A stretch of DNA of 64,000 bases, taken from Octopus vulgaris. Lineage: Eukaryota. The stretch lies in the NCBI GenBank assembly GCA_951406725.2, contig OX597817.1, positions 155,434,001 through 155,498,000 on the forward strand. Direction: 5' to 3'. Numbering within the stretch: position 1 is the stretch's first letter; each line of letters starts with the position of its first letter. Shown here in pieces: positions 3,138 to 64,000 of this stretch. The position numbers and the translations under genes were made by a program. The notes beneath the pieces were generated by a model. It saw only the letters and a program-made list of their open reading frames with translations. It ran no database searches and had not been told where the DNA came from.

Positions 3138-6100
3138 ATCACACACAAATACACATGCAAACACACACACACGCATGCAAGCACACACACATGCATGCAT
3201 GCAAGTACACATACATGCAAGCACACACACACATGCACACACACACACATATGCAAGCACATACACACATACACACACATGCAAGCACACACATACACTC
3301 ACATACACACATACATATAAACAAGTTTTCCATCTCCCAAAATTCACTCACAAAACTGAACATATCAATCATCAGAGTAGCAACAGCAATGATCATAGTA
3401 CTCACCTGTAATATGGGAAACTGGTGGAATCTTCAGGCTGAGGGCAAGACTGTGAGCTATGCTGCGTACACCATTCTGCATTTTGTCTTTGAAGCAGACG
3501 ACTTCAATTTCACTCACTTTGTCACCTCTGCAAGTTTACAAACAAGTCACATCATCATCATCATCATCATCATCATTATTTAATGTCTGTTTTCCATGCT
3601 GGCATGGGTTGGATAGTTTGATAGGACCAGGCTCCATTCATCTGTTTTGGCATGGCTTCTATGGCTGGATGCTTTTCCTAATGCCAACCAATTCCATTTC
3701 CAAGCTGGATCTATTTCACTTCAAATCCAACACTAATGCCCTTGGGAAAGGCATGAACTCCATTAATTTTCATCCATGCCCTTCTATTTTGCTTGTAAAA
3801 ATTGATCTAGTTTCATGCTAACATAGAGGAGATATGTAAGAGAATATGTATTTTCTTCAGTGTGTATTTCCTGAAACCAGGGCTGTGGAGTTGAAACAGA
3901 AAACTTCAACTCCTCTCCTAATGGCACCTCTGACTCCGACGCCTCTATGTATATGTGTTTCTGTGTGTGCATCTTTGTGTCTGTGTTTGCCACCCCTACT
4001 ACCACTTGACAACTGGTGTTGGTTTGTTTATGTCCTAGTAACTTAGCAGTTCAGCAAAACCGTCCAACAAAATAAGTATCAGACTTAGAAAAAAAACAAA
4101 TTACTGGAATTGATTTGTGTTCAACTAAAACTCTCCAAGGCAGTTCCCCCGCATGGCAGTTCACTGACTGAAACAAGCAAAGATAAAAATAAGAAACCCA
4201 TACTATGCCCGTAACATATATTGAAGAGTGCTGTGTCACCTACCAAATATCTAAACAACTTGTTAAAAGATGCAAAATACTAAATTTTGCTTAGTAATTA
4301 GTGATAAAAAAAATTAACTTAGTTTCAGTAGCCTTCGAGGTAACAGAGAACATTTAATCAAACAAAGAAAAGCGGTAAAACACAGGCACCTAATTTTTTG
4401 GTGGCTGAAAATATTGGATGCGACTTGTCAAATGATTGTAAAGCATAATACTGGTTTCAAATTTTGGCACAAGCTCAGGGAGGAGTAAGTCAATTATATC
4501 AACCCCAGGCGGCGAGCTGGCAGAAACGTTAGCGCGCCGGGCGAAATGCGTAGCCGTATTTCGTCTGTCGTTACGTTGTGAGTTCAAATTCCGCTGAGGT
4601 CGACTTTGCCTTTCATCCTTTCGGAGTCGATAAATTAAGTACCAGTTACGCACTGGGGTCGATGTAATCGACTTAATCCCTTTGTCTGTCCTTGTTTGTC
4701 CCCTCTATGTTTAGCCCCTTGTGGGTAGTAAAGAAATATATATATCAACCCCAGTGCTCAACTGGTACTTATTTCATTGATCCCAAAAGGGGTGAAAGGC
4801 AATGTCAGTCTTGGCAGAATTTGAACTCAGAACATAAAAGATGGACAAAATACTGCTAAGCATTTTGCCCAGTACAGTAATGATTCTGCCAGCTCACTGC
4901 TTTATTGCAGAACATGATATTTCCTGGAGAAACAATGATCAGACCAAAGCTGGGTTGGGTAACAAAGAAATAGAAAACTGTAAAGACATACTTACATGAC
5001 ATATGAGATGAAGTAGAGGTAATTCCGTAGGGGCCAACCAGGGAAATCACTTGCAGGACAAGGATCATAAAAGGCAAATATCACCTGTAAACAAAGAAAC
5101 AGGACATTATTTTTTAACTTTTACTTGTTTCAGTCAATGGACTGTGGCTATGCTGGGGCACTGCTTTGAAGGGTTTAGATGAACAAGTTGCCCTCCAGGA
5201 CTTACTTTTTTTAAACTCTAGTACTCATTCTGTGAAGTTGCATGGCTCAGTGGTTAGACTGTCGGACTCACAATCATGAGGTAGTGAGTTTGATTCCCAG
5301 GCAAGGTTGTGTGTTGTGTTCTTGAGCAAGATACTTTATTTCACATTGCTCCTTGCTCGCTCAACTAGAGAAATGAGTTGCAATGTCACTGGTGCCGACT
5401 GTATTGGCCTTTGCCTTTCTCTTGGATAACATCAGTGGCATGGAAAAGGGAGGCTAGTATACAGGAGCAGCTGCTGGTCTTCCACAAACGACCTTGCCTA
5501 GACTTGTACCTTGGAGGGTAACTTTCTAAGTGCAATCCTGTGGTCATTCATGACCGATGGCAGTCTTAATCCTTAACTACTCGTTCTATCAGTTTCATTT
5601 TGCCAAGCTGCTAACTTACAAGGTCACAAACAAACCAACACCAGTTGTCAAGTGATGTGGGGTACAAACACAGACAAACACACATACATATATATGTACA
5701 ACAAGAATCATTCAATTTCAATCAGCCAAATCCCTCACAAGGTTTTGTTCAGCCTGAGGCTATAGAATAAGACACTTGCCCAAGGTGCCACACAGTGAGA
5801 CTGAACCTGAAACCATGTGATTGGAAAGCAAGCTCCTTAAAACATAGCCAATTTTTTTGTTTGCTACAGTGGTGATGGAGGTGGAATTGATTGTTGTATT
5901 GGTTGCTATTGTTGAGATGTAGCTCTCAGGGCAGTCCTGGTGACGGCAGTGAAATCCTAGGTGAGTGAGATGAGGAATAGTTACATTGTAAAACCCAAAT
6001 TTAAATGATTGTATATTCACCATGTTCACTTTCATCACAACCATGATCATTGTTTTAATATCCATCTATGTTTTACAAGCTAGCATGGGTTGGATAAGTC

Positions 6101-6930
6101 TGCCATATAGCAGATAGAGCATCATCATCATCATCATCGTTTAACGTCCGTTCTCCATGCTAGCATGGGTTGGACGGTTCGACCGGGGATCTGGGAAGCC
6201 AGAAGGCTGCACCAGGCTCCGGTCTTATCTGGTAATGTTTCTACAGCTGGATGCCCTTCCTAACGCCAACCACTCCGTGAGTGTAGTGGGTGCTTTTTAC
6301 GTGCCACCTGCACTGGTGCCAGGCGAGGCTGGCATCGGCCACGGTCGGATTGGTGCATTTTACGTGCCACCTGCACGGAAGCCAGTCGAGGCGGCACTGG
6401 CTTCGGCCACGATTCGGATGGTGCTTTTTACGTGCCACCGACACGGAAGCCAGTCGAGGCGGCGCTGGCATCGGCCACGATTCGGATAGACAATACAAAA
6501 AAGAAAGAAACAGCATTGAACTGCATTAACAGAATAGATTGAACAAATATACATAACTGATAACGAAGAGGAGAGTGGAGATTTATTCACATCCAAAGCT
6601 TTTTTATTAAAAAGTTTTCTACAGCATAACACAGACCTACATATGTTTCGACTGCGTATGTAGGTCAGTATTATATATGCTGTAAAATAACCATTTTGAT
6701 AAAAAAGTTTTGGATGTGAATAAATCTCGACTCTCCTCTTCGTTATCAATTATATACTCTATGGAATATTTGCAGTTCTAAATAGGAACACAGAACTACC
6801 CAACGAGTGAAGCTTATTAGTACCAGTATCTCTTTTAAGCTTGAGTACTATGTAACTGGACTGTTGTGGATAGCCAGCATCTATACCAATTTGTGAGATA
6901 ATTATCTGCCAGGATAATTAATCCCTTTTA

Positions 6931-6967
<37 letters not shown>

Positions 6968-7480
6968 TAGTTTAATGAATTATCTTAGTATGGATAATTC
7001 GGTTAACCGATACCTGGGTAGCAAATTCACGTCAGAAAAACACGGTTGAAGCTACATGCCAAGGGCAGAGATCATGTACTTTCGTGTGGAAATTTGTGTG
7101 TTTTTTTAATACAAATAAATGAAAGAATGGAGTTGAACGACGATTTAACAAAATTCCATTATTCTCGACATATGTTTCGAAGGCTGCATATTCCTAATTT
7201 CGAAGGAATAAGGGGTGCATTATGCCGCCTTCTTATCAGGAATAACAAGGAACTTATGTCAGCATCAAGATGAACAAAAACTCTTAGATGACTGCCCACA
7301 CGGAGTCCATAGCGATAATGTTTTTGTTCATCTTGATGCTGACATAAGTTCCTTGTTTTTCCTGATGAGAAGGCAGCATAATGCACCCCTTATTCCTTCG
7401 AAATTAGGAATATGCAGCCTTCGAAACATATGTCGAGAATAAAGGAATTTTGTTAAATTGTCGTTCAACTCCATTCTTTC

Positions 7481-7530
<50 letters not shown>

Positions 7531-10327
7531 CCACACACACACACACAGATGAACTGTTTCATTACTGCTACCAGAAGTATACTTCAAAGGCAGCGAACTG
7601 GCAGAAACGTTAGCACACTGGGCGAAATGCTTAGCGGTATTTCATATGCCGCTACATTCTGACTTTGTCCTTCATCCTTTCGGGTCAATTAAATAAGTAC
7701 CAGTTACACACTGGAGTCGATATAATCAACTTAATCCATTTGTCTGTCCTTGTTTGTCCCCTCTGTGTGTAGCCCCTTGTGGGCAGTAAAGAAATAAAAA
7801 GTATACTTCAAGTCCCTTAACACTGGTTGCCCCATAACCATGGGTAGGGTACCTGACCACCACTGCCTGCACAAACCACAGACTGACCTTCCATACATGT
7901 TATACTAGATCATTAGAGTGAGAGGAAGGAAGGGATGAACAGGCTTATCAAGTGTAGTTAAGTATTACCACACCACCATTTAAACATCCTCATCACCATC
8001 ACCAATTTACATCTGCTTTTCCACACTGGCATGGTTTGGATGTCAGATCATACAAGTCTTATAAACACACTAGCAGTATTGCCCGGCGTTGCTCGGGTTT
8101 GTAAGGGAAATAACTATAAAGCATTTTTAGAGAGTTATAGCCAAAAAATAGCAAAAAAATGGGTAAAAAATTATGGTAAATTTTTTTGAGAGTTAAAAAG
8201 GTCGAGTTGCGTCCCCTAGACAGTCTGTTGTTTGTGTTTCTGATCCTCGACCCCATGTCGAATTTATCGATTTTTCAGAACTGGGGGAACTTTTCAAAAT
8301 TTTCGCTGCGTTAGTTTTGAATTATGACATTGGGCTATGTGTGTGTCAAGTTTCATCAGAATCGGTTGAAAGCCGTGGTCAGGGTAGGGTACAACCTGAC
8401 AGACACACAGACACGCAGACAGACAAACTGCCGTTTATATAGAGAGATACACTCTCAGCATCACACTATCAACTGAAGCAGAAACAAATATATACACTCA
8501 GTAAAACACAATGACATCACATGTACATATACATAGTCGAACTCATATAGGCACGTTCACAAATGCATACACACAGCTTATACACATCATCATCATTTAA
8601 CGTCCACTTTCCATGCTGATATGAGTTGGACGGTTGACATGGAGCTGGCTAGCTGGAAGCTGTCCAGATTCTAATTGTCTGTTGTGGCATGGTTTCTACA
8701 GCCAGATGCCCTTCCTAACGCCAACCACTTAACAGAGTATACTGGGTGTTTTTTACATGCCACCAGCACGGGTGAGTTTACACAGCAGTGGTATGGATAT
8801 GTTTATAGTGACGGCGAGCTGGCAGAATCATTAGTGCGCTGGGCGAAATGCGTAGCTGTATTTCGTCTGCCGTTACGTTCTGAGTTCAAATTCCACCGAG
8901 GTCAACTTTGCCTTTCATCCTTTCGGGGTCGATAAATTAAGTACCAGTTACGCACTGGCGTTGATGTAATCCATTTGTCTGTCCCCTTTGTGTGTAGCCC
9001 CTTGTGGGTAGTAAAGAAATATATAGTGACGGCATCTTGGAAATCTCCAGCATGCATGCACAGGGTTGGAGTCTTCCAGGAGGCCTGCCAGAAGTTCCCT
9101 TGTGCGCATGCGCAGAAAAATAGCAGCGGCAAAATTCTCTGGTATCACTCTCTTAGACGCCAGCAGCTGAACAAGACAGACGTATCTGCATCAGCTCTCT
9201 CAAGCTGCTACCTCATGATGCCTCTCCGTTATGCTTGAACGAGCAAGATTAACTCATTCTACTTGACTACTGCCGATAAGCTCCTAGGCTGCCGATTCGC
9301 CCAGAGGAAGGAAATGTTTATATTGTGAATCAAGGCGGTGAGCTGGCAGAAACGTTAGCATGCAGGGTGAAATGCGTAGCCATATTTCGTCTGCCGCTAC
9401 GTTCTGAGTTCAAATTCCGCCGAGGTCGACTTTGCCTGTCATCCTTTCGGGGTCGATAAATCAAGTACCAGTTACGCACTGGGATCGATGTAATCGACTT
9501 AATCCGTTTGTCTGTCCTTGTTTGTCCCCTCTGTGTTTAGCCCCTTGAGGGTAGTAAAGAAATATATATTGTGAATCAAGAAATAAATATTTATACAGTT
9601 AAAGTTATTCAGAAGTCTTAACTCTTCCTTCGATTAATATTTAATATAAAGGATGCGAGCTGCACCCACCCAGTGCGGGGAACTCTCATCCCGTTATATG
9701 CTTATACAGCACCAGCAAGGGTGCATTTACACATACAAAAACAAATACATAGTGTAACAGTATCACCTCTGAAACACAGTCCATATGCACATACTCACAA
9801 ATATAGACACCAAGATTACAGAAACCAAAAAAGGCTAAAATTTAACCAGAGAACTCAACACAGCTGACCAGTGATTGTTCATTAACACATCACTAGTGTG
9901 AAATTTGGTCATAAACATAACTAGCCATCGATACTAACCTTTTGGTTCTCAGACATCAACTTGGTCAACATGCTGACAGGATGTACAATAATTTTACCAT
10001 CATTTGTTTGTTGAAATAAAAAAAAGGCTTGCAGTCTTTTGTTTAATGACTGGAATTCATCATAGGCTTTCATGAGGTTTTCAAGCTGCAAATATATCAA
10101 AATTCCAAGGATTATGTACATTTATATATCAACATTTCAGGGATTATAAACAATAGTAGGTGTAGGAGTGGCTGTGTGGTAAGTAGCTTGCTTACGAACC
10201 ACATGGTTCTAGGTTCAGTCCCATTGTGTGGCACCATGGGCAAGTGTTTTCTACAATAGCCTCAGACCAACCAATGCCTTGTGAGTGGATTTGGTAGACG
10301 GAAACTGAAAGAAGCCCGTCGTATATA

Positions 10328-13076: not shown

Positions 13077-15019
13077 CAATAAAAAAGGGTAAAATTATAT
13101 ATATATATATATATATATATTGTCAATAAAAAGGATAAAATTAATTAATTATTGATTAATTCGACCGAGCAGTGTTCGGTATGTAAAACGACCATTTACG
13201 GTATATTTGAAATATTACTTTATAAAAATAGGGTAAAGTAAAATAATTTACTTTACCACACACCAAACTTTTTAGAAATAGCAGTCAAAAATTTGGCTAT
13301 TTCTTCTACTGCAAGAAAAGCCCCTTGTGGGTAGTAAAGAATATGTCAAGTAATCATGATGATGATGATGATGAAGAGCACACAATAAGGAAGAAAGAAG
13401 GAAGTGCAGAAGAAAGAAAAAGTTGATAGAAGACAAGGAAAAAGCAAAAACGACAAAGATATAATAGAGAAAAGAAGCAGTTTGAGATGTAATTACCATG
13501 TCATTTGTGAAACAATCCTTCAGTAGTCTCTGTTTGTGAACAAGGACATTGTCTGGTAAAGAGATGCAAGGGAAGGCATACCAGTAGTAATAGTGGTACT
13601 TCTTTAGATCCTGTATAAAATATACAAAACAACACAGGTTATTTAACAAAAATTACTGAAAAGGAAACGGAAATAATGCTAGACTTCTGACAGGCTGAGT
13701 CTGCCTCTCAATGTCAGTTTGATATGAAGTTGTGTCAGTTCACTATGTTTATTCCTTCTACTTGTGGTTCCCAGCTGTGGAACCCACAAGCCAGTGTAAG
13801 AGATGGGCTCCCAGCTTCCACAATGTTTAATACAGAGAGAATACCAAACTCATTCCCTATGGATACCGTATTTATTACGAGTGGCTTGTAAACGTATCTA
13901 ACTGGCTTTCGCTCGTTAGATACGTTTACAAGCCACTCATTGTAATAAATACGGTATCCATAGGGAATGAGTTTGGTATTTTATTTATTACACACGAATA
14001 AACGACCATATTTTATTAACCCAATAACTAAATTCTTCACGTTTAGTTGTAACTTATGAATGACAAAAGTAGTGCCGTCACCGTGATCTCAAGTCATCAC
14101 CATGGATTGACCAATCAGAAGCAGTGCTGTCACCGTGACCTCGGGTCATCACCATGGATTGACCAATCAGAAGCAGCGCTCGCAGTATCTGACATATGTT
14201 AGATACCAAAAGTATATCAGTGTTCTCACTCACATGTGTGTAATAAACTACATGATGTGAAAACTGCATTTTCAGTGTTGTTTACTGCTACATTTGACAC
14301 ATGTAAAAAAAAAAAAAACAAGCCAGAGCTAACAAGAGAGCCTCTATATAGAGACACTAAACATGCTAGAAACAACAGTACCTAAATTTCTTTGAAATCA
14401 TATTGTTTGGGGGAAAAAAATGGAAGGTTACATTAGCCATGGCTAATACAGACATAGCTATGTGATTAAGAAGTTTCATACCCAGTTACACGTAAAAAGC
14501 ACCCACTACACTCATGGAGTGGTTGGCGTTAGGAAGGGCATCCAGCTGTAGAAACACTGCCAGATCAGACTGGAGCCTGGTGCAGCCTCCATGGCTTCTC
14601 AGATCCTGGTCGAACCGTCCAACCCGTGCTAGCATGGAAAACGGACGTTAAACGATGATGATGATGATATATATATATATGTTTGTGTGTGCCTTGTCCT
14701 GTTATTCCTTATTTATACTGTTTTTACAACTGTCTTTTCTTCATTTGTATTGCATTCACGTCCTGTTCTTGTCACTCGTTTTACCCCTCTGCAAAAGAAT
14801 TTTATTTAATTCCTTTTGCAGGAAGGATTGTTTCGGCCTGGCCGTGTTCTGTCCTTACCTTCGAAACACGCATTGAGCTGAATCAGGGACAGCTGAAGAA
14901 GGGGAATTTTCCTTCTATTGTTTGTCCTGTACTCTGCTTTTTCGTTGTTAAAAAAAGTCTGTTTCCTTGTTTGATTTTGTTTTCGTTTCTCGTTCTACAT
15001 TTATTTGTGGTGTCCTATA

Positions 15020-18525: not shown

Positions 18526-20898
18526 CGCAGGAGTGGCTGTGTGGTAAGTAGCTTGCCTACCAACCACATGGTTCTGGGTTCAGTCCCACTGCGTGGCATC
18601 TTGGGCAAGTGTCTTCTGCTATAGCCTCGGGCCGACCAATGCCTTGTGAGTGGATTTGGTAGACGGAAACTGAAAGAAGCCTGCCGTATATATGTATATA
18701 TATATATATGTGTATGTGTGTGTTTGTGTGTTTGTCCCCCTAGCATTGCTTGACAACCGATGCTGGTGTGTTTACGTCCCCGTCACTTAGCGGTTCGGCA
18801 AAAGAGACCGATAGAATAAGTACTGGGCTTACAAAGAATAAGTCCCGGGGTCAAGTTGCTCGACTAAAGGCGGTGCCCCAGCATGGCCGCAGTCAAATGA
18901 CTGAAACAAGTAAAAGAGAAAAAGAGAGAGAATATATATAATCAAAATAAGCAACCAGAATATCCAGAGGTAATTGTTGCTTATTTTAATTTTAATCACC
19001 TTATTTTGAAATTGCATGGATAATACCGTACTAAATTCTGGTGCCTCAACCTAAGTACCATATTCATCTGAATCTAAATTTTATATATATATATACATAC
19101 ACAATGACTGACCTCTTTCAGTTCCTATCTACCAAATCCACTCACAAAGCTTTGGTTGACCCAGGTTACAGTAGAAAATACTTGCCCAAAGAATGGGCTG
19201 CACAGTGAGACTGAACTGAAAACCACATTACTCTTTTACTTGTTTCAGTTATTTGACTGCGGCCATGCTGGAGCACCGCCTTTAATCGAGCAACTCGACC
19301 CCGGGACTTATTCTTTTGTAAGCCCAGTACTTATTCTCTTTTGCCGAACCGCTAAGTAACGGGGACATAAACACACCAGCATCGGTTGTCAAGCAATGCT
19401 AGGGGGACAAACACAGACACACAAACATATTCACACACACTTATATATATATACATATATACAACAGGCTTCTTTCAGTTTCCGTCTACCAAATCCACTC
19501 ACAAGGCATTGGTCGGCCCGGGGCTATAGCAGAAGACACTTGCCCAAGATGCCACGCAGTGGGACTGAACCCGGAACCATGTGGCTGGTAAACAAGCTAC
19601 TTACCACACAGCCACTCCTGCGTGTGCATGGTTGCAAAGCAAACTTCTTAATCACACAGAGCCACACCTCATCTTAAAATAAGAAAGACACTTTGTATTT
19701 TGTAGTCTGGGATAAGCTAAAACTAAATAAACAGCTTGGCCTTTCATTACTGATCTTCTTGATCAAGACTCACAAAGAGTTAAATGACAAAAGCAACAAT
19801 AATCATCAGCCTGTGGTACCCATTTACAGCTGAGTAAACAAAGCTGTTAATAGTCAAAGGTTTTGGCTCTGGATGCTGTAGAGCCCCAGTGAGAGGTTAT
19901 GAGCGACTGACCCCTTGACCAGTTGTCCACTACCATAATGATTTAGTCAACAAAACAGTGATTAAACAAAGAAATAAAATATGATCATTGCATCTACTTA
20001 CAGCAAAGGACAGCATGATAAACTGAGTGAGTAGGTTGGGGTTCTCCATTGCTTTCCCTGACTTAATATCATTGAATATCTGAAAATAAATGATAGCATT
20101 AAGAACACTTTATTAACAATAATGGGTTTTCATTCAGCAAGTCTTAACCCTTTAGCATTTAACCATTTACTGTTCGCATTATTCTACCAAAATTAATGCT
20201 TTTTTATCCACTTTGTTTTGAACTAATCAGGCATTATCTTGTAGCTATGAGATTTTGATGAGGAAGCTGTTAATTTTTAAAACGATTTTGTAGGGTTGGT
20301 GTGAGAGACCAGATCTGGCCAGTTTGAACATAAAACAGACAGAATACTTTTGGCCGGATATGGCCAGTTTAAATGCTAAAGGGTTAAACCAGCCATATTT
20401 GGCCCAAATATTCAAAATCTTTTATGCTCAAACCAACCATTTGCAATCTTTCACACTGATATGACAATATTACTTTCAAAATAAGCAATCACATCATTGA
20501 AATTTCAAAGCTATGAGATAATGCATGATTAAATCAAAACAATGTGAATAAATAAGCATTACTTTTGACAGAATAATTTGAATGCTAAAGGGATTTTTTT
20601 TATTACCCATAAGGGTCCAACAAAGATGGGACAATACAATCTGATTTGGGGGTTAGATGAACGAATGGTGATACAAAAAAAATGGCATTAAAAATTTAAC
20701 AAAAATTATAAGATGTAATAAAATCGAATGATAGAACAGACCGGAAGACATTATGAATGGAGTGGGGGGAGGGGGTTAATTTGGACCCCACGAGCCCCAC
20801 CTCGCCACCCTTACCTTTGACAGAATATGAATACTAAAGGGTTAAATAATTATTTGACCACATTATATGATTACTACTACTACTACTACTACTACTAC

Positions 20899-20950
<52 letters not shown>

Positions 20951-23336
20951 TACGGAGATGTACTTGCATAGCAAGTGATTTGATCTGAGATCGTGTGCTG
21001 AAACGAAAACAATTGCAGCGTGGAAGGTGTTTGTAAGCCATTTAAGAAACACACAAAAGCCGTTCGATTCACTTCAACATTTAACTTTAATTTGTCAAAA
21101 TATTTTCGTCGCTTTAAGACCTTGACCTGTTCACTGAAGCGACGAAAATATTTTGACAAATTCAACTTAAATGTTGAAGTGAATCGAACGGCTTTTGTGT
21201 GTTTCTTAAATGGCTTACAAACACCTTCCACACAAGAATAATAATAATAATGATTAAAAGTAACCAAACTACTTTTACATATCCTACTTCTCAATCACAC
21301 CCATTGTAAACTTTATTGCAAATTCTTTGTCATAAAAGATATAAGAACAACTGTTGAGTCAAAACAATTGCCAGACATCTCAACATGGCTAGTTCAGCCA
21401 TGAGGTATCTCAACATGGCTGGATTAACAAGCGAGACAGCTCTTTAACACGACTTATTCCACACTTGTTAGGTGTCACAACACGGTTTCTTCAACAGATG
21501 TGAATGAAACTTATCAACACGGCTGGTTCATAGCTGAAAACATGTATTTATCGACCCCGAGAGGATGAAAGGCAAAGTCGACCTCGGCGGAATTTGAACT
21601 CAGAATGCAGTGGCAGACGAAATACCACAAAGCATTTCACCTGTCATGCTAACGTTTCTACCAGCTCGCCACCTTTGGACAAAATGCTTAGCAGCATTTT
21701 GTCTGTCTTTATGTTCTGATTCAAATTCCACCATGGTTGACTTTACCTTTCATCCTTTCAGGGGTTGATAAAATAAGTACCAGTTGAGAACTGGGGTTGA
21801 TGTAATTGACTAAGCTCCTTCCACTAAAATTTGCTGGCTTAGTGGTTAGGGTATTCTGCTCACAGTCATATAAAGCTGATTCAACAGTTATGAAATAACT
21901 CATGTAGAAGGAAGATACATAACCCTTCAGCATTCAGACCTCTCTATCAAATTTAATGCTTATTTATTATCATTGTTTTAAATTAGTCATGTATTATCTT
22001 ATAGTTTTGAGACTTCAATGATTTGATAATTCATTTTTAAAATGACATGGTAGGGTAGAAGTGAGAGGCCAGAATATAAAACAGGTAGAAAATTTGAACC
22101 AGTTATAGCTGGTTTAAATGCTAAAGAGTTGAAGATGGTGAATTGGTAGTCACTGGAACATTGGAATGAATACCATGTAGTATTTGCTCTGAATTCAAAT
22201 CCCACCAGGAGCAACATTACCATTCGTCCTTTCAGAGTTGATTAAAAAAAAGTACCAATCCATAACATAACAGTAAGAATATATGACCAGAAGCCTTGAA
22301 GCATGTGTTCTGGTTCTTTTTGTTCTGAGTTCAAATCATGTTACAGGTGGTGCACTTAATCGATAGCCTATAACAGAACAGTCTCTTCTGCCGAATGTCT
22401 AAGTTACGGGGATGCAAACACACCAACATCGGTTGTCAAGTGATGGTGGTGGGGACAAATACAGACAAAAACACACACACACCGACATATATACGACAGG
22501 CTTCTTTCAGTTTCCATCTACCAAATCCACTCACAAGGCTTTGGTCAGCTCAAGGCTATAGTAGAAGACACTTGCCTAAGGTGTTATGCAGTGGGACTGA
22601 ACCCAGAACCATGTGGTTGGTAAGCAAGTTTCATACCACAGTCACACTTGCGCCTATAGTTAAAAATTATTTCACATTAACTTGAAATTTCTGAATTCTC
22701 ATGACAAAATCAACTTTACGTTTAAAATGCTTAACATGGTGGTCACTCACCTGCTCTGCTGTTGCTTGCAAAATCTCTTTTTGCTTGAAGTTCTTGAATG
22801 CTTCAATGGTGTTCACCAGATATAACAAGCCTTCTGCTTTACAATGGCGTGGTGGTGCCTCAGCTTTGCTGGAATAAAACAGATCATCTTCAACATCATC
22901 ATCATCATTGTTGTTGTTTTAACATTCACTTTTACATGCTTGCATGGGTTTGACAAAATTTCTTTGAGGTGGATTTCCTATGGCCAGATGACCTTCTGTC
23001 ACCAACCCCAGCCTCTTTCCAGATAAGGTAATATTTCCCCATAACATGGTTTCAAGTTCAGTTCCACTTTGTGGCATCTTGGGTGAGGGTCTTCTACCAT
23101 AACCCCTGGCCTTGTGAGTGAATTTGGTTGATGGAAACAATGTGGAAATCCACCATATACTCTTTTACTTGTAGGAGTGGCTGTGTGGTAAGTAGCTTGT
23201 TTACCAACCACATGGTTCCAGGTTCAGTCCCACTGCGTGGCACCTTGGGCAAGTGTCTTCTACTATAGCCTCGGGCCGACCAAAGCCTTGTGAGTGGATT
23301 TGGTAGACGGAAACTGAAAGAAGCCCGTCGTATATA

Positions 23337-23379
<43 letters not shown>

Positions 23380-25856
23380 GTGTGTGTCCCCCAACATTGC
23401 TTGTGTGTTTACGTCCCTGTAACTTAGCAGTTTGGCACAAGAGACCGATAGAATAAGTACTAGGCTTCCAAAGAATAAGTCCTGGGGTCAATTCGCTCGA
23501 CTAAAGGTGGTGCTCCAGCATGGCCACAGTCACATGACTGAAACAAGTAAAAGAGTATATGGTGGATTTCCACATTGTTTCCATCAACCAAATTCACTCA
23601 CAAGGCCAGGGGTTATGGTAGAAGACCCTCACCCAAGATGCCACAAAGTGGAACTGAACTTGAAACTATGTGGTGGCAAAGCAAGCTTCTTCAGATGTGA
23701 GGGATCAAGACAGTTCATGAGTATTGAAGCCATAATAACTGTCACTCTGTCAGCTATGACAATGAGAGTTCCAGTTGATCTGATGAATGGGACAGCTTGC
23801 TCATGAAATTAACATGCAAGTAACAGAGCACTCCACAGATATGCATACCCTTAACATAGTTCTCAGAATATGACAAGACTGGCCCTTTGAAATACAGGTA
23901 CTACTCATTTTTGCCAGCTGAGTGGACTGGAGCAACAAGAAATAAGGTGTCTTGCTCAAGAACACGAAATGCCACCAGGTATTAAGCTCACAACTATATG
24001 ACTGTGAGCAGAATACCCTAACCACTAAGCCAGCAAATTTTAGCTGAAAGAGCTTAGTCAATTACATCAACCCCAGTTCTTAACTGGTACTTATTTTATC
24101 AACCCCTGAAAGGATGAAAGGTAAAGTCAACCATGGTGGAATTTGAATCAGAACATAAAGACAGACAAAATGCTGCTAAGCATTTTGTCCAAAGGTGGCG
24201 AGCTGGAAGAAACGTTAGCATGACAGGTGAAATGCTTTGTGGTATTTCGTCTGCCACTGCATTCTGAGTTCAAATTCTGCCGAGGTCGACTTTGCCTTTC
24301 ATCCTTTCGGGGTCGATAAATTAAGTACCAGTGACGCACTGGGGTCTATGTAATCGACTTAATCCATTTGTCTGTACTTGTTTGTCCCCTCTAAGCTTAG
24401 CACCTTGTAGGCAATAAAGAAATAAGCATTTTGTCCAACATACAAATGACTCTGCCAGCTTACTGCCTTACTGGAACCATAATACTGATGACTATCAGAC
24501 ACCTTAAAAATAAACAGCCCAAAGAATTGAACATGAAGTCATTGATATGATATGTGAAACATATCTGAGTTGTGTTAATTATGAGCATAAGATATGTGAT
24601 TGTGACAGCAGAGAGAGTCAAACTTTTGAAACACCTGCATTATGATACACTCACAATTCACACGCAATCACATGATGGTGATCATCAGCATTGCTCAACA
24701 TTTGGTCTCCATGCTGGCATGGGTTGGGCAGTCTGACATGGAGCTGCCCAGAATCCAACTGTCTGATGTAGCATAGTTTCTATGGCTGGATGCCCTTCTT
24801 AATGCCAACCACTTAAGAGTGTGCTGGGTGCTTTTTATATGTCACTGTCACAGGTACGTTTATGCAGCACTGGCACAGTGCATTAATGCAGCACCAGCAC
24901 AGGTGCAGTAATGCAGCAGCAGCCATATCTGGCTCAAATTTTCTACCTGTTTTATATTCTGGCCTCTCACTTCTACCCTACCATGTCATTTTAAAAATGA
25001 ATTATCAAATCATTGAAGTCTCAAAACTATAAGATAATACATGACTAATTTAAAACAATGATAATAAATAAGCATTAAATTTGATAGAGAAATCTGAATG
25101 CTGAAGGGTTAAGTATCTTCCTTCTACATGAGTTATTTCATAACTGTTGAATCAGTCGTACTAACATACATGTTTTCAGCTACGAACCAGCCATGTTGAT
25201 AAGTTTCATTCTGGGGTGCCACATGGTCCCCATTGAGAACCTTTGCACTAAACCCTTCAAGGTGGTGCCCCAGCATATCTGTAGTCCAATGACTAAAACA
25301 AATAAAAGATATCTTGTTTAGGCTGTTGAAGTAGCCATGTTGAGACATCTGTATTGAAACATCTCATAATTGTTACACTAATCATGTTGAGGTATCAATC
25401 AACTGTTGAACCAGCTATGTTGTGGCACCTAACAAGTGTGAAATAAGTCGTGTTGAGAGCTGTCTCACTTAAAAAGTGTTTCTGCTTTTTAAGTGGCACA
25501 AGTACCTGAAAAGACAAGCCTGTATGTGTAGGAGACATATGTCTGCAGAGGGACACAAGCCTATGTCTTCTTCCACAAATAGGGGATTGTCCTTTTAGGT
25601 GCTAGAGTGAAATCTCAGTCAACAAAGATGAAACTAAAATATAGAAGTATTTATAATTAACATACCTGTCAAAGGCAGTGAAATCAAGGCTCAGCCGACA
25701 TGGCCCACTGGAATATCCTGGTCAATAAAGCAAAAAAAAAGTAGAAGTAAATATGTACATGGGAACACACTGCTTGACAACCAGTGTTGATATATATATA
25801 TATATAACTGAAACAAGTAAAAGAATAAAAGTATGTATGTGTGTGTGTGTATATAT

Positions 25857-28862: not shown

Positions 28863-29240
28863 TTACGGAGATGTACTTGCATAGCAAGTGACTTGATCTG
28901 AGATCGTGTGCAGAAACGAAAACAATTGCAGCGTGGAAGGTGTTTATAAGCCATTTAAGAAACACACAAAAACCGTTCGATTCACTTCAACATTTAAGTT
29001 TAAATTGTCAAAATATTTTCGTCGCTTTAAGACAGCGACCTCTTCACTGACAAAAATCGTGATGCATCTCAGAAGAAAAAACAACAGAAGAGATGCAGCA
29101 CGGATTTTTGTCAGTGGAGAGGTCGCGGTCTTAAAGCGACGAAAATATTTTGACAATTTAAACTTAAATGTTGAAGTGAATCGAACGGTTTTTGTGTGTT
29201 TCTTAAATGGCATATAAACACCTTCCACGCTGCAATTGTT
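28863..29240 (-). mobile_element. Fold-back element family, copy 2
   Basis: Arms about 28921-29069 / 29088-29240; flanking direct repeat taagaacag. Confidence 0.72.
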
Positions 29241-30368
29241 TAAGAACAGCTTTATTATTAAACAAAATTATTTTTAACACTTTATATTGTAAGAACTGTC
29301 ACACCACTGAAGACTGGGTCATTGGATTCATTTTTACAAATAAAAATAAACATTGCTCATAGTAGTAAAGTCTTTTGTGTAACAGTACCATAAATAAGGC
29401 AAGGGAGAGGTGTCGACGGGCTTCATTAATTGTAATATTTAGCAAGACGAAAAGAGAGATAGGATGGGGCTTAAAACGTAGACAGCATACATTACCTCAG
29501 GTAGATATGTAATAATTAAAACAATTGAAGAAATATCCACAGCGAATTATCTTCGATCCAATGAAGAGTATAACTAGACGTTAGTAATTAACGTTTGTGA
29601 AGCCAAGTGCTCGATTCAATTGGACTGAATCTGGATATAAACATTGCAGATTTACGTCCCTTCTGTATTCGGTGTTAGCAGAAAGCATGTCACCACTAGA
29701 AACTAATTGAGATCTTCTACACGAACCAGTGTTATCAAAGGAAAACACCTAAAAGCTCCACGAGGCTCCGGCAGGGATGGTGGTGATCCCTGCTGTACTC
29801 TTTCACCACAACTTTCTCTCACTCTTACTTCCTGTTTCTGTTGTACCTGTATTTTTTCAAAGGGCCGGCCTTGTCACTCTCTGTGTCACGCTGAATATCC
29901 CCGAGAACTACGTTAAGGGTGCACGTGTCTGTGGAGTGCTCAGCCACTTACACGTTAATTTCACGAGCAGGCTGTTCCGTTGATTCGGATCAACCGGAAC
30001 CCTCATCGTCGGAACCGACGAAGTGCTTCCACATATCAAAGGAATATTACACTTTAATACGACCTCTATAAATTTACCAAATAGGTTACACTTATCAAAA
30101 TTTACCAAATAAAATGACAAATAAGGAAAAATAATGCTAGTTACTTTATTTGAAAAGAAGCGAAGAAACTATGTCTTTACTAATGAAAATGAGACGACCA
30201 TGCACACAAAAAAAATAGTTAAAATATCTTCTTAGTATATAATGGTGGCAAGTTTTACATCATCTGAAAAGTTATTATTTGAACAATTAGTCCTCCTGCA
30301 TTCTGTGGGGTATCGGAGCGTTTCAGTGACATTAGACCCCAATAAACGCCCATAAATTAAATACACCT

Positions 30369-34499: not shown

Positions 34500-36710
34500 T
34501 CACTGGTTTTGCCGGGTCTTCTCACGCACAGCATACTTCCATAGGTCTCGGTCTCTGGTCATTTCCTTGGTGAGACCTAGAGTTCGAAGGTCGTGCTTCA
34601 CCACCTCGACCCAGGTTTTCCTGGGTCTACCTCTTCCACAGGTCCCCTCAACTGCCAGGGTGTGGCACTTTTTCACACACCTATCTTCATCCATTCTCAC
34701 CACATGACCATACCAGCGCAATCGTCTCTCTTGCACACCACATCTGATTCCTCTTAGGTCCAACTTTTCTCTCAAGGTACTTACACTCTGTCGACTATGA
34801 ACACTGACATTACACATCCAACGGAGCATACTAGCTTCATTTCTCGCGAGCTTACGCATGTCCTCAGCAGTCACGGCCCATGTTTCACTGCCATGTAGCA
34901 TGGCTGTTCGTACACATGCATCATACAGTCTGCCTTTTACTCTGAGCGAGAGGCCTTTAGTCACCAACAGAGGTAAGAGCTCCCTAAACTTTTCCCAGGC
35001 TATTCTTACTCTAGCCGTTACACTTTCAGCACACCCACCCCCACTACTGACTTGGTCACCAAGATAACGGAAGCTATCAACTACTTCTAGTTTTTCCCCC
35101 TGGAAAGTGACGGAAGTTGTTTTCTGCAGATTTTCAGAGGTTAATGCTCCCGAGCATCTGCCACATACAAAAACCATCTTCCTAGTTAGCCTTCCTATGA
35201 CATTGCTGCACCTCTTATGTGTCCATAGCTTACACTTGGTGCATCTTATAGAGTTTCTACCTACACCTTTTCTACAGATCGAGCAGGGCCATCTACCTGA
35301 AGGCGTTTGTGATTTGTCTACCTTCCTACTTATTAGGACTTTGGTTTTAGCTAGGTTGACTCTAAGGCCCTTCGATTCTAAACCATGCTTCCACACCTGA
35401 AACTTCTTCTCCAGTTCTGATAATGACTCAGCAATTAGAGCAAGGTCATCAGCATAGAGGAGCTCCCAGGGGCATCCTGTCTTGAATTCCTCCGTTATTG
35501 CCTGGAGGACTATGATAAATAGGAGGGGGCTGAGGACTGAGCCTTGGTGGACCCCTACCTCGACCCGGAATTCTTCACTGTACTCATTGCCAACCCTCAC
35601 CTTACTAGCAGCGTCCCTGTACATGGCTTGCACAGCTCTCACTAACCATTCATCTATTCCTAGTTTCCTCATTGACCACCATATGAGGGATAGGGGGACC
35701 CTGTCGAAGGCTTTCTCCATGTCAACAAAAGCCAGGTACAGGGGCTTATCTTTGGCTAGGTATTTCTCCTGCAGCTGCCTTACCAGGAATATAGCATCAG
35801 TGGTACTTTTCCCTGGCACGAAACCAAACTGCATCTCATCTAAACTAACTCTCTCTCTAATTAGTTGGCTTATGACCCTCTCTGTAACCTTCATCACCTG
35901 ATCCAACAGCTTGATACCTCTGTAATTATTTGTATCTAGGGCATCACCTTTACCTTTGTAGCAGTTGACTATTATGCTGCTACACCAGTCATTGGGTATG
36001 ACTCCTTCATGTATCACCTGATTAACTATACAGGTGACTAGGCTATAGCCGACACTACCAGATATTTTGAGCATCTCTGCAGCAATACCTGATGGGCCTG
36101 GGGCTTTCCCTGTCTTCATGCTTCTAATTGCCTTAGCTACTAAGGAACTATCAACCCTGATAGCTGGTCCCTCTGTTGGGTCAACGTTCGGCAGACTCTC
36201 TTTATCCCATTCATTTTCTTTATTCAGCAACCTTTCATAGTGGCGTCTCCAAGCCTCTCTCTTTGCATCCTCGTTTAGCGCAAGTGAACCATCTTCCATG
36301 CGAACACACTTCTCTCTCACACACTGTCTTGCAACGCGAAACACCTCCAGTCTTTGGTCCTCACGGTGCAGAACATTGGCAAATTTTTTCTTATCTGCTT
36401 CCCCTCTGGCTAGATAGACCTGTCTCCTAGCTTCCCTTTTAGCAGTCTGATACAATTCCCTGCTACCACCATTCTTCCAGTGCTTCCAAGTCTGTCTCTT
36501 TTCTCTAATAGCCCTGTCTACGACACTGTTCCACCACCACGTTACCTTGGGACGAGAGGGGACTTTGCACCAGCCACAGATCTGGTCAGTGGCTCTCAGC
36601 AGGTTGTCCCTTAGAAACGTCCAGTTGTCCTCTACCCCATGTGATACTCTATCCCCTTCTACTTCGTCAAAGGCTTCAAGTAACATGTCTCTAAATCTCT
36701 GTCCATTCAC
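34500..36710 (-). CDS. RTE LINE reverse transcriptase ORF (partial ORF2) with internal C4HC3 PHD-like finger
   Basis: 736 aa uninterrupted; CSIC...CTKC...HKRC...CGRC lies after the YADD motif. Confidence 0.92.
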   Translation of the reverse strand: MNGQRFRDMLLEAFDEVEGDRVSHGVEDNWTFLRDNLLRATDQICGWCKVPSRPKVTWWWNSVVDRAIREKRQTWKHWKNGGSRELYQTAKREARRQVYLARGEADKKKFANVLHREDQRLEVFRVARQCVREKCVRMEDGSLALNEDAKREAWRRHYERLLNKENEWDKESLPNVDPTEGPAIRVDSSLVAKAIRSMKTGKAPGPSGIAAEMLKISGSVGYSLVTCIVNQVIHEGVIPNDWCSSIIVNCYKGKGDALDTNNYRGIKLLDQVMKVTERVISQLIRERVSLDEMQFGFVPGKSTTDAIFLVRQLQEKYLAKDKPLYLAFVDMEKAFDRVPLSLIWWSMRKLGIDEWLVRAVQAMYRDAASKVRVGNEYSEEFRVEVGVHQGSVLSPLLFIIVLQAITEEFKTGCPWELLYADDLALIAESLSELEKKFQVWKHGLESKGLRVNLAKTKVLISRKVDKSQTPSGRWPCSICRKGVGRNSIRCTKCKLWTHKRCSNVIGRLTRKMVFVCGRCSGALTSENLQKTTSVTFQGEKLEVVDSFRYLGDQVSSGGGCAESVTARVRIAWEKFRELLPLLVTKGLSLRVKGRLYDACVRTAMLHGSETWAVTAEDMRKLARNEASMLRWMCNVSVHSRQSVSTLREKLDLRGIRCGVQERRLRWYGHVVRMDEDRCVKKCHTLAVEGTCGRGRPRKTWVEVVKHDLRTLGLTKEMTRDRDLWKYAVREKTRQNQ

Positions 36711-36895
36711 AGGATCCTTAAGCTTCCAGATCCTTCTTCTCCATGTTGGTCGTCTTCTGGTTGTCCTCCTACTCCTGATCCTAAAGTCACTAACTACCAG
36801 TCTATGTTGTGGGGTGCATTCTTCGCCTGGGAAGGTTTTGGCATTTATAAGTAGCCATCTCTCCCTTTGCCTGGCAAGGATATATATATATATAT

Positions 36896-37289
36896 CTTTT
36901 ACTCTTTTACTCTTTTACTTGTTTCAGTCATTTGACTGCGGCCATGCTGGAGCACCGCCTTTAGTCGAGCAAATCGACCCCGGGACTTATTCTTTGTAAG
37001 CCCAGTACTTATTCTATCGGTCTCTTTTGCTGAACCGCTAAGTGACGGGGACGTAAACACACCAGCATCGGTTGTCAAGCAATGCTAGGGGGACAAACAC
37101 ACAAACACACACATACACATATATACATATATACAACAGGCTTCTTTCAGTTTCCGTCTACCAAATCCACTCACAAGGCATTGGTCGGCCCGGGGCTATA
37201 GCAGAAGACACTTGCCCAAGATGCCACACAGTGGGACTGAACCCGAAACCATGTGGCTGGTTAGCAAGCTACTTACCACACAGCCACTC
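36896..37289 (-). mobile_element. SINE family B abutting the truncated 5' end of the RTE
   Basis: Consensus match. Confidence 0.9.
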
Positions 37290-53742: not shown

Positions 53743-54038
53743 TTACGAAGATGTACTTGCATAGCAAGTGACCTGATCTGAGATCGTGTGCTGGAACGAA
53801 AACCATTGCAGCATGGAAGGTGTTTATAAGCCATTTAAGAAACACACAAAATCCGTTAGATTCACTTCAACATTTAAATTTAATTTGTGAAAATATTTTC
53901 CTCACTTTGAGACCATGACCTGTTCACTGACAAAATTCCGTGCTGCATCTTGAGATAATTTGATAAATTAAATTTAAATGTTGAAGTGAATCTAATGGAT
54001 TTTGTGCGTTTCTTAAATGGCTTATAAACACCTTCCAC
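53743..54038 (-). mobile_element. Fold-back element family, copy 3
   Basis: Same left end; shorter inverted arm; 12-bp flanking direct repeat actatatttaaa (53731-53742, 54039-54050). Confidence 0.72.
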
Positions 54039-54366
54039 ACTATATTTAAAAGTCTGCTGAAACAAATGCCTTTGTATTATTTTCTATTATAGCAGGTTAT
54101 TGAAATGCAAATAAATCATTAACTGTTCTAATAGGAAATAAGCAAATACTAACTATTTTTACAATAATTTTAATGTTCACTTTTCCATGCTTGCATGGGT
54201 TTGACAGTATACCGAAACAGATTTTCTAGAGTCAGATACCCTCCTTGTTGCCAACTCTCACCCGTTTCCAAGCAAGGTAATATTTCTCAATGTTTTTCAT
54301 GTAGTACTGGAGATGAATGTCAGAGACACTCATCTAAAACTACCAAGACAAAGAGACAAGCATTCA

Positions 54367-61799: not shown

Positions 61800-62673
61800 T
61801 CACATATTACTTGGATTGTCAGTCTTTGGGTCTGTTGACTTACTAATTACTGTTTCAAAAGCCTCTGTCTGAGAAGGGTGAGTTTTGGGGTGGTGCTCTT
61901 TAGAAGATTGCAACATGTCTTTCTTTGACATTGGTTCTGAATAACTAGTTTTAGTAGGAGCTGTGGCTCCTTGTGAGACAAGATTTGTTGTTGGATACTG
62001 CCAACCCTGTAACAATGATGGCTGGCGGAGAAATGGAACTCTATTTAATACTGGCTGGCCATACTGTGCCTGGTTTTGTTCATCAGTCATTTGATAAGAG
62101 TGACTCTGATCTCTCTGTTGCTGATAGTCAGAAACCCTGTGCCCAGAAGTTGAATGATGTACTGGAGGACCAGATCCCATATGTTCTGATGGCAATTCAG
62201 AAAAATAGTCTCCTTGTGAAGATTTAGAACTTACATCACCTTTATGATGTAAAGACTGCTGTCCCTTTGAGGATGCTTCCCACTGAGAAGGGGTGGGATC
62301 CATATCAGAATGTGATTGAACAGGGGACCTGAAAGTAGAATATGGTGAGATGGACCTATAAGGTCCTTGCACATCAGGTGAAAGATTCCTAGATTGTTTT
62401 GTAAAGTTTTCCATACATTTCAAGATACCAGCTGAAAACAGCTCCTCACTCTTTGGTACATTCACAGCCATTTGAGGAATACTACTACTTCCAACTGGTA
62501 AAGGTGATACTAAAGAGCCTGGGACAGATTGCAAAGTAACTGGAATTGGGCTCAACATTGGTCCATTATTCACATGTTTAATAAAATCTTCAACATGGAT
62601 TCCATGTTTACGTAGGAAAAGTTCAATCTCATTTTTATGCCTTAATTGCATTTCAGCTAATTCTGTTTTTTGC
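61800..62673 (-). CDS. Large, probably terminal, coding exon of a second gene; tentatively the C-terminus of a WNK-family kinase (coiled coil plus S/P/Q-rich tail)
   Basis: Acceptor aatttcag|G at 62673; about 290 open codons to TGA at 61800. RQKTELAEMQLRHKNEIELFLRKHG resembles the WNK C-terminal coiled coil. The rest is low complexity, so the family call is uncertain. Confidence 0.6.
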
Positions 62674-64000
62674 CTGAAATTATAAAAATATTCTATAATT
62701 AATAATTTACGCAAACAATTAATTTCTTTTACACAGTAATCTGTATTGCAACAGAAATCTGCAGTCAGTCAGTCAAGAAATATTAATGATACATGTGAAA
62801 AATAAATTTTTCAAAAGAAAGCTAGTCCCCCCAAAAAAAAAAAAAAAATGCATATTAAAGAATCAAGTAATGATTTTTATTTGGTTTTCAAAATTTCAAA
62901 ACAAACATTTTCATCATTATTCCATTTTTCCACAACTGAAAAAAGACATTTCCTTACATCTGATCTTAATAACTTTTTGCCCTAAATATTACCATCTTCA
63001 GACAGCTTCTTGTCTGATAGAATTCTTCATAGCTCTTTTAGATTTGGTATTGTGAGATGTTAAAATTTCAGTTCACATTTTGCAATATTTATCATTAATG
63101 GAATTAAACAACTTTTTCCTATGAAAGTAAAAACTAATGATTTTTAAAAAGAGTTAGTTATAGCTACTAGTATCCTAAATGAGGAGTTCTAACAGTGACA
63201 AATGGTTAAATGCTTGTAAAGGCTAAATATTTGTAATAGTTAAAAATCAAACACAAAATACTACTGGGACTTATTTTAGATCTCAGATGGATGAAAAGTA
63301 AAAACCAACCCTAGAGAATTCAATTTAAAGAGATGAAACTAAATACCTCAAACATTTCAGCCAATCCACTTAAGTAATAATGACAATATAAAGATTTAAT
63401 AGATATATATTTAAAAAAAAATATTTTCATTATGATTTCCAGTTATGGTGGAATAATATTTTCTGACTCTTACCAAGAAGGAATATATATTCCACAAGCA
63501 TTTTGAAAATGTAAGCTTAACACCAGAAAAATAAACAAAAAGTTAATACATTAGCATTTAGTCCTGAGTATTATGAAGAAAATACATATAAACTAATGAG
63601 GGGTATGAAATTTAAACAATTTATTCAAGAATAATATCAAACCTGATAATATTTGTTTTATGCTTTTAATATACTGGTAAACAAAACAAACTTGTGAAAC
63701 TCATATAAAAGTACGAGAAATACTAATATATTAGAATAACAACACACATTAATGAGGTGATTTTTTTGAGCTTAGTATAATAATATTAAATATGACTGAG
63801 TTGAAATTAAGACAATGGGTAGCGAAATTTTATAATCAAAGGGTGTAAAGCTAATATGAAGTTACAACTACGAACTTCAAAAGGCAATCTTTTTAAAATA
63901 TGTACTGAGTGAACTGAAATTTTAATTTATTTTCATTTTTAAAACTTTATTTGTAAATGAAATAATTTCACTTGAATAATAATAATAATAATAATAATAA

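What the first reader, a model, noticed from the sequence alone, without database searches (positions are those of the whole stretch)
7115..7486. 372-bp fold-back element containing a complete hammerhead ribozyme and its mirror image
Seen: 167-bp inverted arms with a 38-nt loop. The plus arm has stem I (11 of 13 positions paired), CUGAUGA, a long branched stem II closed by GAAGGC/GCCUUC, GAAAC, palindromic loop AUAU, and a GUC cleavage triplet at 7432-7434. Known: minimal type I hammerheads with palindromic loop III mark Penelope-like element termini and cleave as dimers, and such elements often have inverted termini. The long stem II and back-to-back arrangement inside an essential gene's intron are unusual. 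Inference: a non-autonomous ribozyme-bearing retroelement family.
Basis: partly seen in the sequence, partly recalled or inferred. Interest (0 to 1): 0.8.

Follow-up and report, generated by a model that had tools for sequence, protein, structure and literature searches.

The report
Penelope-type fold-back scar with hammerhead
This hairpin-shaped stretch is real and holds one intact self-cutting RNA motif and one mutated copy, but it is most likely the ordinary head-to-head tail-end remnant of a high-copy Penelope-like jumping gene, unusual only in the ribozyme's long second helix and a long one-sided tail.

Summary
The fold-back is real: 167-bp arms with 5 mismatches, a 38-nt loop, and on the + arm a type I hammerhead with GUC at 7432-7434. 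It is not a perfect mirror: the - arm copy, the one read in ATG7 pre-mRNA, has a private G8-to-A core change, and on either strand the antisense arm is made first and buries the ribozyme. The unit is larger and asymmetric: about 6966-7486 between two (TA)n tracts, a long - copy with a ~145-nt extra tail plus a short inverted + copy. Contigs from public runs show a family thousands of times deeper than the flanks, depth falling 8- to 17-fold toward the pivot, and three copies with other pivots. Two more hammerhead-bearing fold-back families lie in the window; one has three copies with a shared end and different pivots. This matches the published Penelope-like insertion pattern of a 5'-truncated copy, an adjacent inverted copy and a one-sided tail, rather than a fixed fold-back element. 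No link to an RT/GIY-YIG gene could be tested. New details: a 54-nt helix II and the ~145-nt tail.

The parts
6966..7486 (.). Whole insertion unit: long copy on - joined head to head to a short inverted copy on +
   Evidence: left edge uncertain within 6966-7000
6966..7114 (-).
   Evidence: depth as high as in the arms; contigs 7003-7146 and 7016-7130 run across the 7114/7115 edge
7115..7281 (-). Paired part of the long copy (left arm)
7154..7252 (-). Hammerhead copy on the ATG7 sense strand with G8-to-A at 7234, predicted inactive
   Evidence: family letter at 7234 is C in over 99% of contig depth in all 4 runs
7282..7319 (-). The 38-nt 'loop': family sequence, the 5' overhang of the long - copy
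   Evidence: contig 7226-7320 joins left arm and loop; high depth over 7274-7319
7320..7486 (+). Short inverted, 5'-truncated copy (right arm), ending at the (TA)n tract
7349..7447 (+). Intact type I hammerhead: core 7362-7368, 54-nt helix II 7369-7422, GAAA 7423-7426, palindrome 7426-7433, predicted cut after 7434
6929..6965 (.). (TA)n tract, left half of the probable target site
7484..7523 (.). (TA)n tract, right half of the probable target site
6550..6903 (.). Neighbouring fold-back of a second family with the same layout: arms 6550-6756, pivot inside a hammerhead remnant, ~147-nt one-sided tail
4998..5084 (-). ATG7 exon downstream of the element (Pfam ATG7_N 216-241)
   Evidence: E 5e-8
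13488..13613 (-). ATG7 exon upstream of the element (Pfam ATG7_N 127-162)
   Evidence: E 2e-7

Best explanation
It is a dead insertion product of a high-copy Penelope-like retroelement family (or of a non-coding RNA carried by its enzymes). Shown: two 5'-truncated copies of the same 3' end are joined head to head inside a (TA)n tract; one starts ~145 nt further 3' than the other; each covers the terminal-repeat hammerhead. Inferred, following the lizard Poseidon data (PMC11167929): the element's endonuclease nicks both strands of an AT-rich target, reverse transcription is primed from each nick at two different internal start sites (with and without the tail), both cDNAs stop early near the structured ribozyme, and their ends are joined. 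Self-priming fold-back of a cDNA (PMC3846280) is an alternative for the joining step. The hairpin is therefore made anew at each insertion and is not the mobile unit. The ribozyme would work in the parent's tandem transcript, probably as a dimer through the ACAUAUGU palindrome. At this locus it is predicted silent: the ATG7-sense copy is G8A, and the intact copy is antisense and paired with the arm transcribed before it.
For: Summed contig depth over 6952-7503 is 7e4-1.1e6 in run X1 (5.8e4 in the last bin, partly skipped) against 37-68 on the flanks, with the same pattern in X3 and X4. Mirror-summed depth falls 8.2-, 16.6- and 8.0-fold from outer arm to loop, as expected from 5' truncation. 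Joints 7155>7439, 7188>7391 and 7192>7388 are copies with other pivots, two with 7 and 3 nt of microhomology. A third family in the window has 3 copies with the same long-arm end, short arms ending 57-70 nt earlier, and different pivots. The motif fits the published Penelope consensus: U-rich leader, CUGANGA, G10.1-C11.1, palindromic helix III (PMC4209133). Alone, the + arm forms helices I and II (P 0.86, 0.99) but barely helix III (0.013); in the fold-back all are 0. Layout and (TA)n targeting are described in PMC8557442.
Against: No RT or GIY-YIG sequence was linked to this family: no genome is held and a 52-aa frame gave 2 hits, both unrelated tandem-repeat translations. The tail (~145 nt) is well above the published 30-40 bp. 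No target-site duplication can be read inside the TA tracts. The pivot joints have only 20-25 nt on the short side, 3 of 15 shown joints bear on this element and 116 were not shown. Summed contig depth is not a copy number. No compensatory changes were seen: of 3 common variants shown inside the motif, 2 are at unpaired positions (7375, 7401) and 1 breaks the helix I pair next to the internal loop (7357); 113 variant rows were not shown. No contig spans this locus.
Confidence: 0.8

Rival explanations
1. A fixed non-autonomous fold-back element of about 370-520 bp that is copied as a unit, using Penelope-like enzymes in trans.
For: High depth over the whole unit including the loop, about 2000-fold over flanks; no coding link found.
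Against: Depth gradient toward the pivot; three other pivots; a read-through transcript would be a 167-bp duplex at -287 kcal/mol; variable pivots in the third family.
Confidence: 0.08
2. A fragment of a non-LTR retrozyme: a tandem hammerhead repeat that makes circular RNA and here inserted as an inverted pair.
For: Type I hammerhead in a non-coding high-copy animal repeat; retrozymes are proposed derivatives of Penelope terminal repeats (bioRxiv 10.64898/2026.07.22.740005).
Against: No direct tandem copy in the window; none of the 15 joints shown goes back by a monomer length in this element; head-to-head layout with a tail is the Penelope pattern.
Confidence: 0.06
3. A DNA transposon-type miniature inverted-repeat element with a TA target, or a local fold-back repair event, that captured a ribozyme.
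For: Long inverted arms and TA at both ends.
Against: Asymmetric ends, variable pivots, 3'-biased depth; three different families in one window share the layout around a hammerhead.
Confidence: 0.03
4. A host-recruited intronic ribozyme or hairpin that regulates ATG7 RNA (cleavage, editing, splicing).
For: It lies in an ATG7 intron and the pre-mRNA can form a 167-bp duplex.
Against: The sense-strand core carries a private G8A change; arms have drifted by 3%; the introns are dense with repeats.
Confidence: 0.03

Closest known systems
Insertion units of endonuclease-bearing Penelope-like elements (Penelope/Poseidon, Neptune, Nematis, Hydra; Craig et al. 2021 PMC8557442; Arkhipova et al. 2013 PMC3846280)
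   Same: 5'-truncated copy with an adjacent inverted copy, head to head; one-sided tail; hammerhead near the 3' end; AT-rich or microsatellite target that hides the duplication.
   Different: Tail about 145 nt instead of 30-40 bp; no ORF remnant recognised; clade cannot be assigned.
Penelope minimal hammerheads with palindromic helix III (Cervera and de la Pena 2014, PMC4209133)
   Same: Type I, U-rich leader, G10.1-C11.1, weak palindromic helix III suited to dimers; pairs on opposite strands 100-700 bp apart are reported there.
   Different: 54 nt between the core boxes (16 bp in three segments) against about 23 nt at most, by eye, in the Fig. S3 rows read; helix I is long with an internal loop.
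Poseidon element of Anolis, in vitro (Frangieh et al. 2024, PMC11167929)
   Same: Both target strands nicked and extended at AT-rich DNA and two internal RT start sites explain a long and a short arm; G8 mutants lose ribozyme activity; cleavage is not needed for insertion.
   Different: Start sites there are adjacent or 30-40 nt apart; joining of the two cDNAs was not shown.
Non-LTR retrozymes (PMC7229834; bioRxiv 10.64898/2026.07.22.740005)
   Same: Non-coding animal repeats with type I hammerheads; about 42-44% of Xenopus copies overlap introns.
   Different: Retrozymes are direct tandem repeats; this unit is inverted and asymmetric.
Octopus Naiad elements (PMC8557442 supplement)
   Same: (TA)n target preference; one is flagged as having half cores 35-50 nt apart.
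   Different: No match to short motifs of this element and unlike 3' ends by eye; Naiads lack canonical hammerheads.

Membership tests
Penelope-like elements (EN+) | Telomerase-like RT plus GIY-YIG endonuclease ORF linked to the terminal repeat | not testable with these tools
   No genome held; only 38 nt lie upstream of the arm; 52-aa frame gave 2 unrelated hits
Penelope-like elements (EN+) | Type I hammerhead with weak palindromic helix III near the 3' end | tested here: met
Penelope-like elements (EN+) | 5' truncation with adjacent inverted copy, variable junction | tested here: met
   depth gradient and three other pivots; short-sided joints, so moderate strength
Penelope-like elements (EN+) | Extension present at one end only | tested here: met
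   6966-7114 belongs to the family and has no mirror
Penelope-like elements (EN+) | Usual tail length of 30-40 bp (typical, not defining) | tested here: not met
   about 145 nt here, about 147 nt in the neighbour, 57-70 nt in the third family
Penelope-like elements (EN+) | Target-site duplication or AT-rich/microsatellite target | tested here: inconclusive
   (TA)n on both sides hides any duplication
Hammerhead ribozyme, type I | Core CUGANGA, GAAA, NUH and three helices | tested here: met
   + arm met; - arm not met (G8A)
Hammerhead ribozyme, type I | Covariation of helices among copies | tested here: inconclusive
   no compensatory pair among 40 variant rows shown, 113 not shown
Hammerhead ribozyme, type I | Self-cleavage | not testable with these tools
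   needs an in vitro assay; only assembled contigs were available
Non-LTR retrozymes | Direct tandem repeats each with a hammerhead | tested here: not met
   single inverted pair in the window; genome-wide arrays not testable
Naiad clade | Sequence match to known octopus Naiads; absence of canonical hammerhead | tested here: not met
   a full hammerhead is present here
Miniature inverted-repeat DNA transposon | Symmetric uniform termini | tested here: not met
   one-sided tail and variable pivots

The most novel reading that the evidence does not exclude
A very abundant (TA)n-targeting Penelope-type family, possibly a protein-free parasite RNA, whose hammerhead has a family-wide 54-nt helix II (perhaps from a duplication of the CCUUCGAAA box, repeated at 7395 and 7418) that standard descriptors and Rfam miss, and whose two reverse-transcription start sites are ~145 nt apart. 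Such long-helix ribozymes could be a hidden class in invertebrate retroelements, and the thousands of pivots would map where the two cDNAs stop and join, a step not yet shown for these elements.
Probability: 0.25. Interest if true: 0.5.

Novelty: new variant of a known kind. Interest (0 to 1): 0.25.

Why it matters
The architecture is known, so the locus is not surprising to a Penelope specialist. Two details are useful: a natural hammerhead with a much longer helix II than published Penelope examples, which tests how freely that helix can grow and shows what motif searches miss; and ~145-nt tails in two adjacent families, which test whether the two-start-site model from the lizard element holds with wider spacing. 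A genome with thousands of such pairs would be a good data set for the unsolved joining step.

Tried and rejected
Rfam scan of 5000-10000 at E<=1: 10 matches, 9 microRNA-hairpin models and 1 lncRNA, all below gathering score, no hammerhead. Pattern scans: strict pattern 0 hits in metagenome contigs; relaxed patterns 9 viral and 41 metagenome loci; 49 of 50 had helix I of 3 bp or less and helix II of 2 bp or less, none matched the element by blastn; L045 had a 6-bp helix I but folded unremarkably, z -1.3. Protein search with the 52-aa open frame across the - copy: 2 hits, both repeat translations, rejected. Naiad identity rejected; FASTA line breaks can hide short matches. The three families' 3' regions are not alignable above shuffles. 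Expression: no RNA holder listed on record; one guessed-RNA run holds family pieces, which shows nothing about this locus. A probable exon at 9939-10085 and one at 3407-3526 gave no ATG7 Pfam hit. Assembly artefact rejected because the arms carry private differences and independent runs show other pivots. A dimer energy was only estimated by summing parts (two open monomers at -26.2 plus a -7.0 duplex against two minimum-energy folds at -27.8). Lunse et al. 2016 and Arkhipova et al. 2017 could not be read; long helix II variants may be described there or in unread supplement parts.

Full report
Observation. The arms are 7115-7281 and 7320-7486, 167 nt with 5 mismatches, around a 38-nt loop. 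The + arm holds a type I hammerhead: helix I 7349-7361 with 7435-7447 (11 of 13 paired), core 7362-7368, helix II 7369-7422, GAAA 7423-7426, palindrome ACAUAUGU 7426-7433, predicted cut after C7434. It was the only descriptor hit on both strands of the window; 60 Markov control windows gave none, and 60 more gave none under a stricter filter. Helix II is predicted as an unbranched bulged hairpin of 16 bp in 54 nt. The - arm copy reads CUGAUAA. G8 changes abolish activity in the lizard Poseidon ribozyme (PMC11167929; G8C tested there, G8A inferred).

Host context. Exons on the - strand at 13488-13613 and 4998-5084 match Pfam ATG7_N, and 225-383 matches ThiF, so the element is in an ATG7 intron and the pre-mRNA carries the mutated copy. 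On either strand the antisense arm is transcribed first. Alone, the + arm forms helices I and II with probabilities 0.86 and 0.99 and helix III with 0.013, the profile of a motif that needs a dimer partner; in the fold-back all three are 0. The repeat-rich animal genome looks octopus-like; that is recalled, not tested.

True extent and family. No genome is held, so contigs of 4 of 24 listed public runs were laid on 6400-7750 at 80% likeness. In X1, flank bins have depth 37-68 and bins from 6952 to 7457 have 7e4 to 1.1e6; X3 and X4 agree in pattern. Summed contig depth is not a copy number, but the family is clearly large. The loop is family sequence continuous with the - copy (contig 7226-7320). 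The unit is thus a long - copy (7319 to ~6966) and a short inverted + copy (7320-7486) lacking the last ~145 nt. Family letters show that 7158, 7234 and 7243 are private changes of the - arm, so the family core is intact. No indel inside helix II was among the 12 rows shown (11 hidden), so the long helix appears family-wide. Mirror-summed depth falls 8.2-, 16.6- and 8.0-fold from the outer arm to the loop. Three of 15 shown joints (116 hidden) are other copies pivoting at 7155>7439, 7188>7391 and 7192>7388, each with only 20-25 nt on the short side. No compensatory base changes were seen among the 40 variant rows shown (113 hidden).

Neighbours. A second family at 6550-6903 has the same layout with a ~147-nt tail and a pivot inside its hammerhead. 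A third has three copies (20950-21231, 28863-29241, 53743-54041) sharing the long-arm end, with short arms ending 57-70 nt earlier and different pivots. The three families are not alignable beyond shuffles. The layout is therefore a product of how these elements insert, not a trait of one element.

Mechanism. Craig et al. (PMC8557442; passages, supplement searches and supplement part 24 of 59) describe heavy 5' truncation, an adjacent inverted 5'-truncated copy, a 30-40-bp tail at one end and microsatellite targets that hide duplications. Cervera and de la Pena (PMC4209133; text parts 1-2 of 4, supplement parts 1-2 of 3) report hammerheads in the terminal repeats, pairs on opposite strands 100-700 bp apart, and low dimer-dependent activity. 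Arkhipova et al. (PMC3846280; passages) report head-to-head inverted repeats and propose self-priming. Frangieh et al. (PMC11167929; parts 1-3 of 4) show nicking and extension of both strands at AT-rich DNA, two internal start sites that define the tail, and no need for ribozyme cleavage. I infer two primed cDNAs, one with and one without the tail, both truncated near the ribozyme and joined. The anatomy is shown; the enzymatic steps are inferred. Confidence 0.8.

Limits. No RT or GIY-YIG link could be tested; a 52-aa frame gave two unrelated repeat hits; 50 pattern hits in viral and metagenome contigs gave no relative; octopus Naiads do not match. It works like a Penelope-type insertion; formal membership and clade are open, and a non-coding parent RNA remains possible. 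Retrozymes (PMC7229834 passages; bioRxiv 10.64898/2026.07.22.740005 parts 1-2 of 5) are direct tandems, which is not seen here. Also consulted as passages: PMC13282606 (Penelope-like elements 6.83% of an octopus genome, 190 families), PMC6765202, PMC3088659. Four earlier notes of this scan from other genomes reach the same reading; they are unchecked leads, not support.

Novelty. The architecture is known. The 54-nt helix II exceeds the roughly 23 nt at most seen by eye in the published alignment rows, whose descriptor limited length, and the ~145-nt tail exceeds the usual 30-40 bp. I found neither described in five paper searches, but two key papers and the preprint supplements could not be read. 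Verdict: a minor new variant of a known kind; interest 0.25.

Noticed in passing
window 20950-21231, 28863-29241, 53743-54041: Three fold-back copies of a third family with a shared long-arm end and different pivots. Their hammerhead-like core starts with G at position 3; two of the four arms examined have C at position 8, a natural G3-C8 swap, with palindromic AUAU and a UUU triplet.
   Followed up: partly
window 6550-6903: Second, lower-copy fold-back family next to the finding, pivot inside the hammerhead so that no first core box survives; ~147-nt one-sided tail.
   Followed up: partly
window 13840-13980: 141-bp palindrome, 90% self-complementary, single in the window, no hammerhead core seen.
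   Followed up: no
window 23044-23671 and 18526-19622: Inverted pairs around or made of SINE-like repeats; the first has 129-bp arms at 99% identity.
   Followed up: no
window 34500-36914 (-): 804-codon open frame with a reverse transcriptase domain and a PHD/C1-like zinc finger, RTE-like by recall; unrelated to the finding.
   Followed up: partly
window 7395-7403 and 7418-7426: A 9-nt box containing GAAA is repeated 23 nt apart inside the ribozyme, hinting that the long helix II arose by duplication.
   Followed up: partly
window 61800-62768 (-): 322-codon open frame of another gene, no Pfam hit.
   Followed up: no
L045 545-603: Marine metagenome contig with both hammerhead core boxes 40 nt apart, the same palindromic loop and a 6-bp helix I; folding not convincing.
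   Followed up: partly
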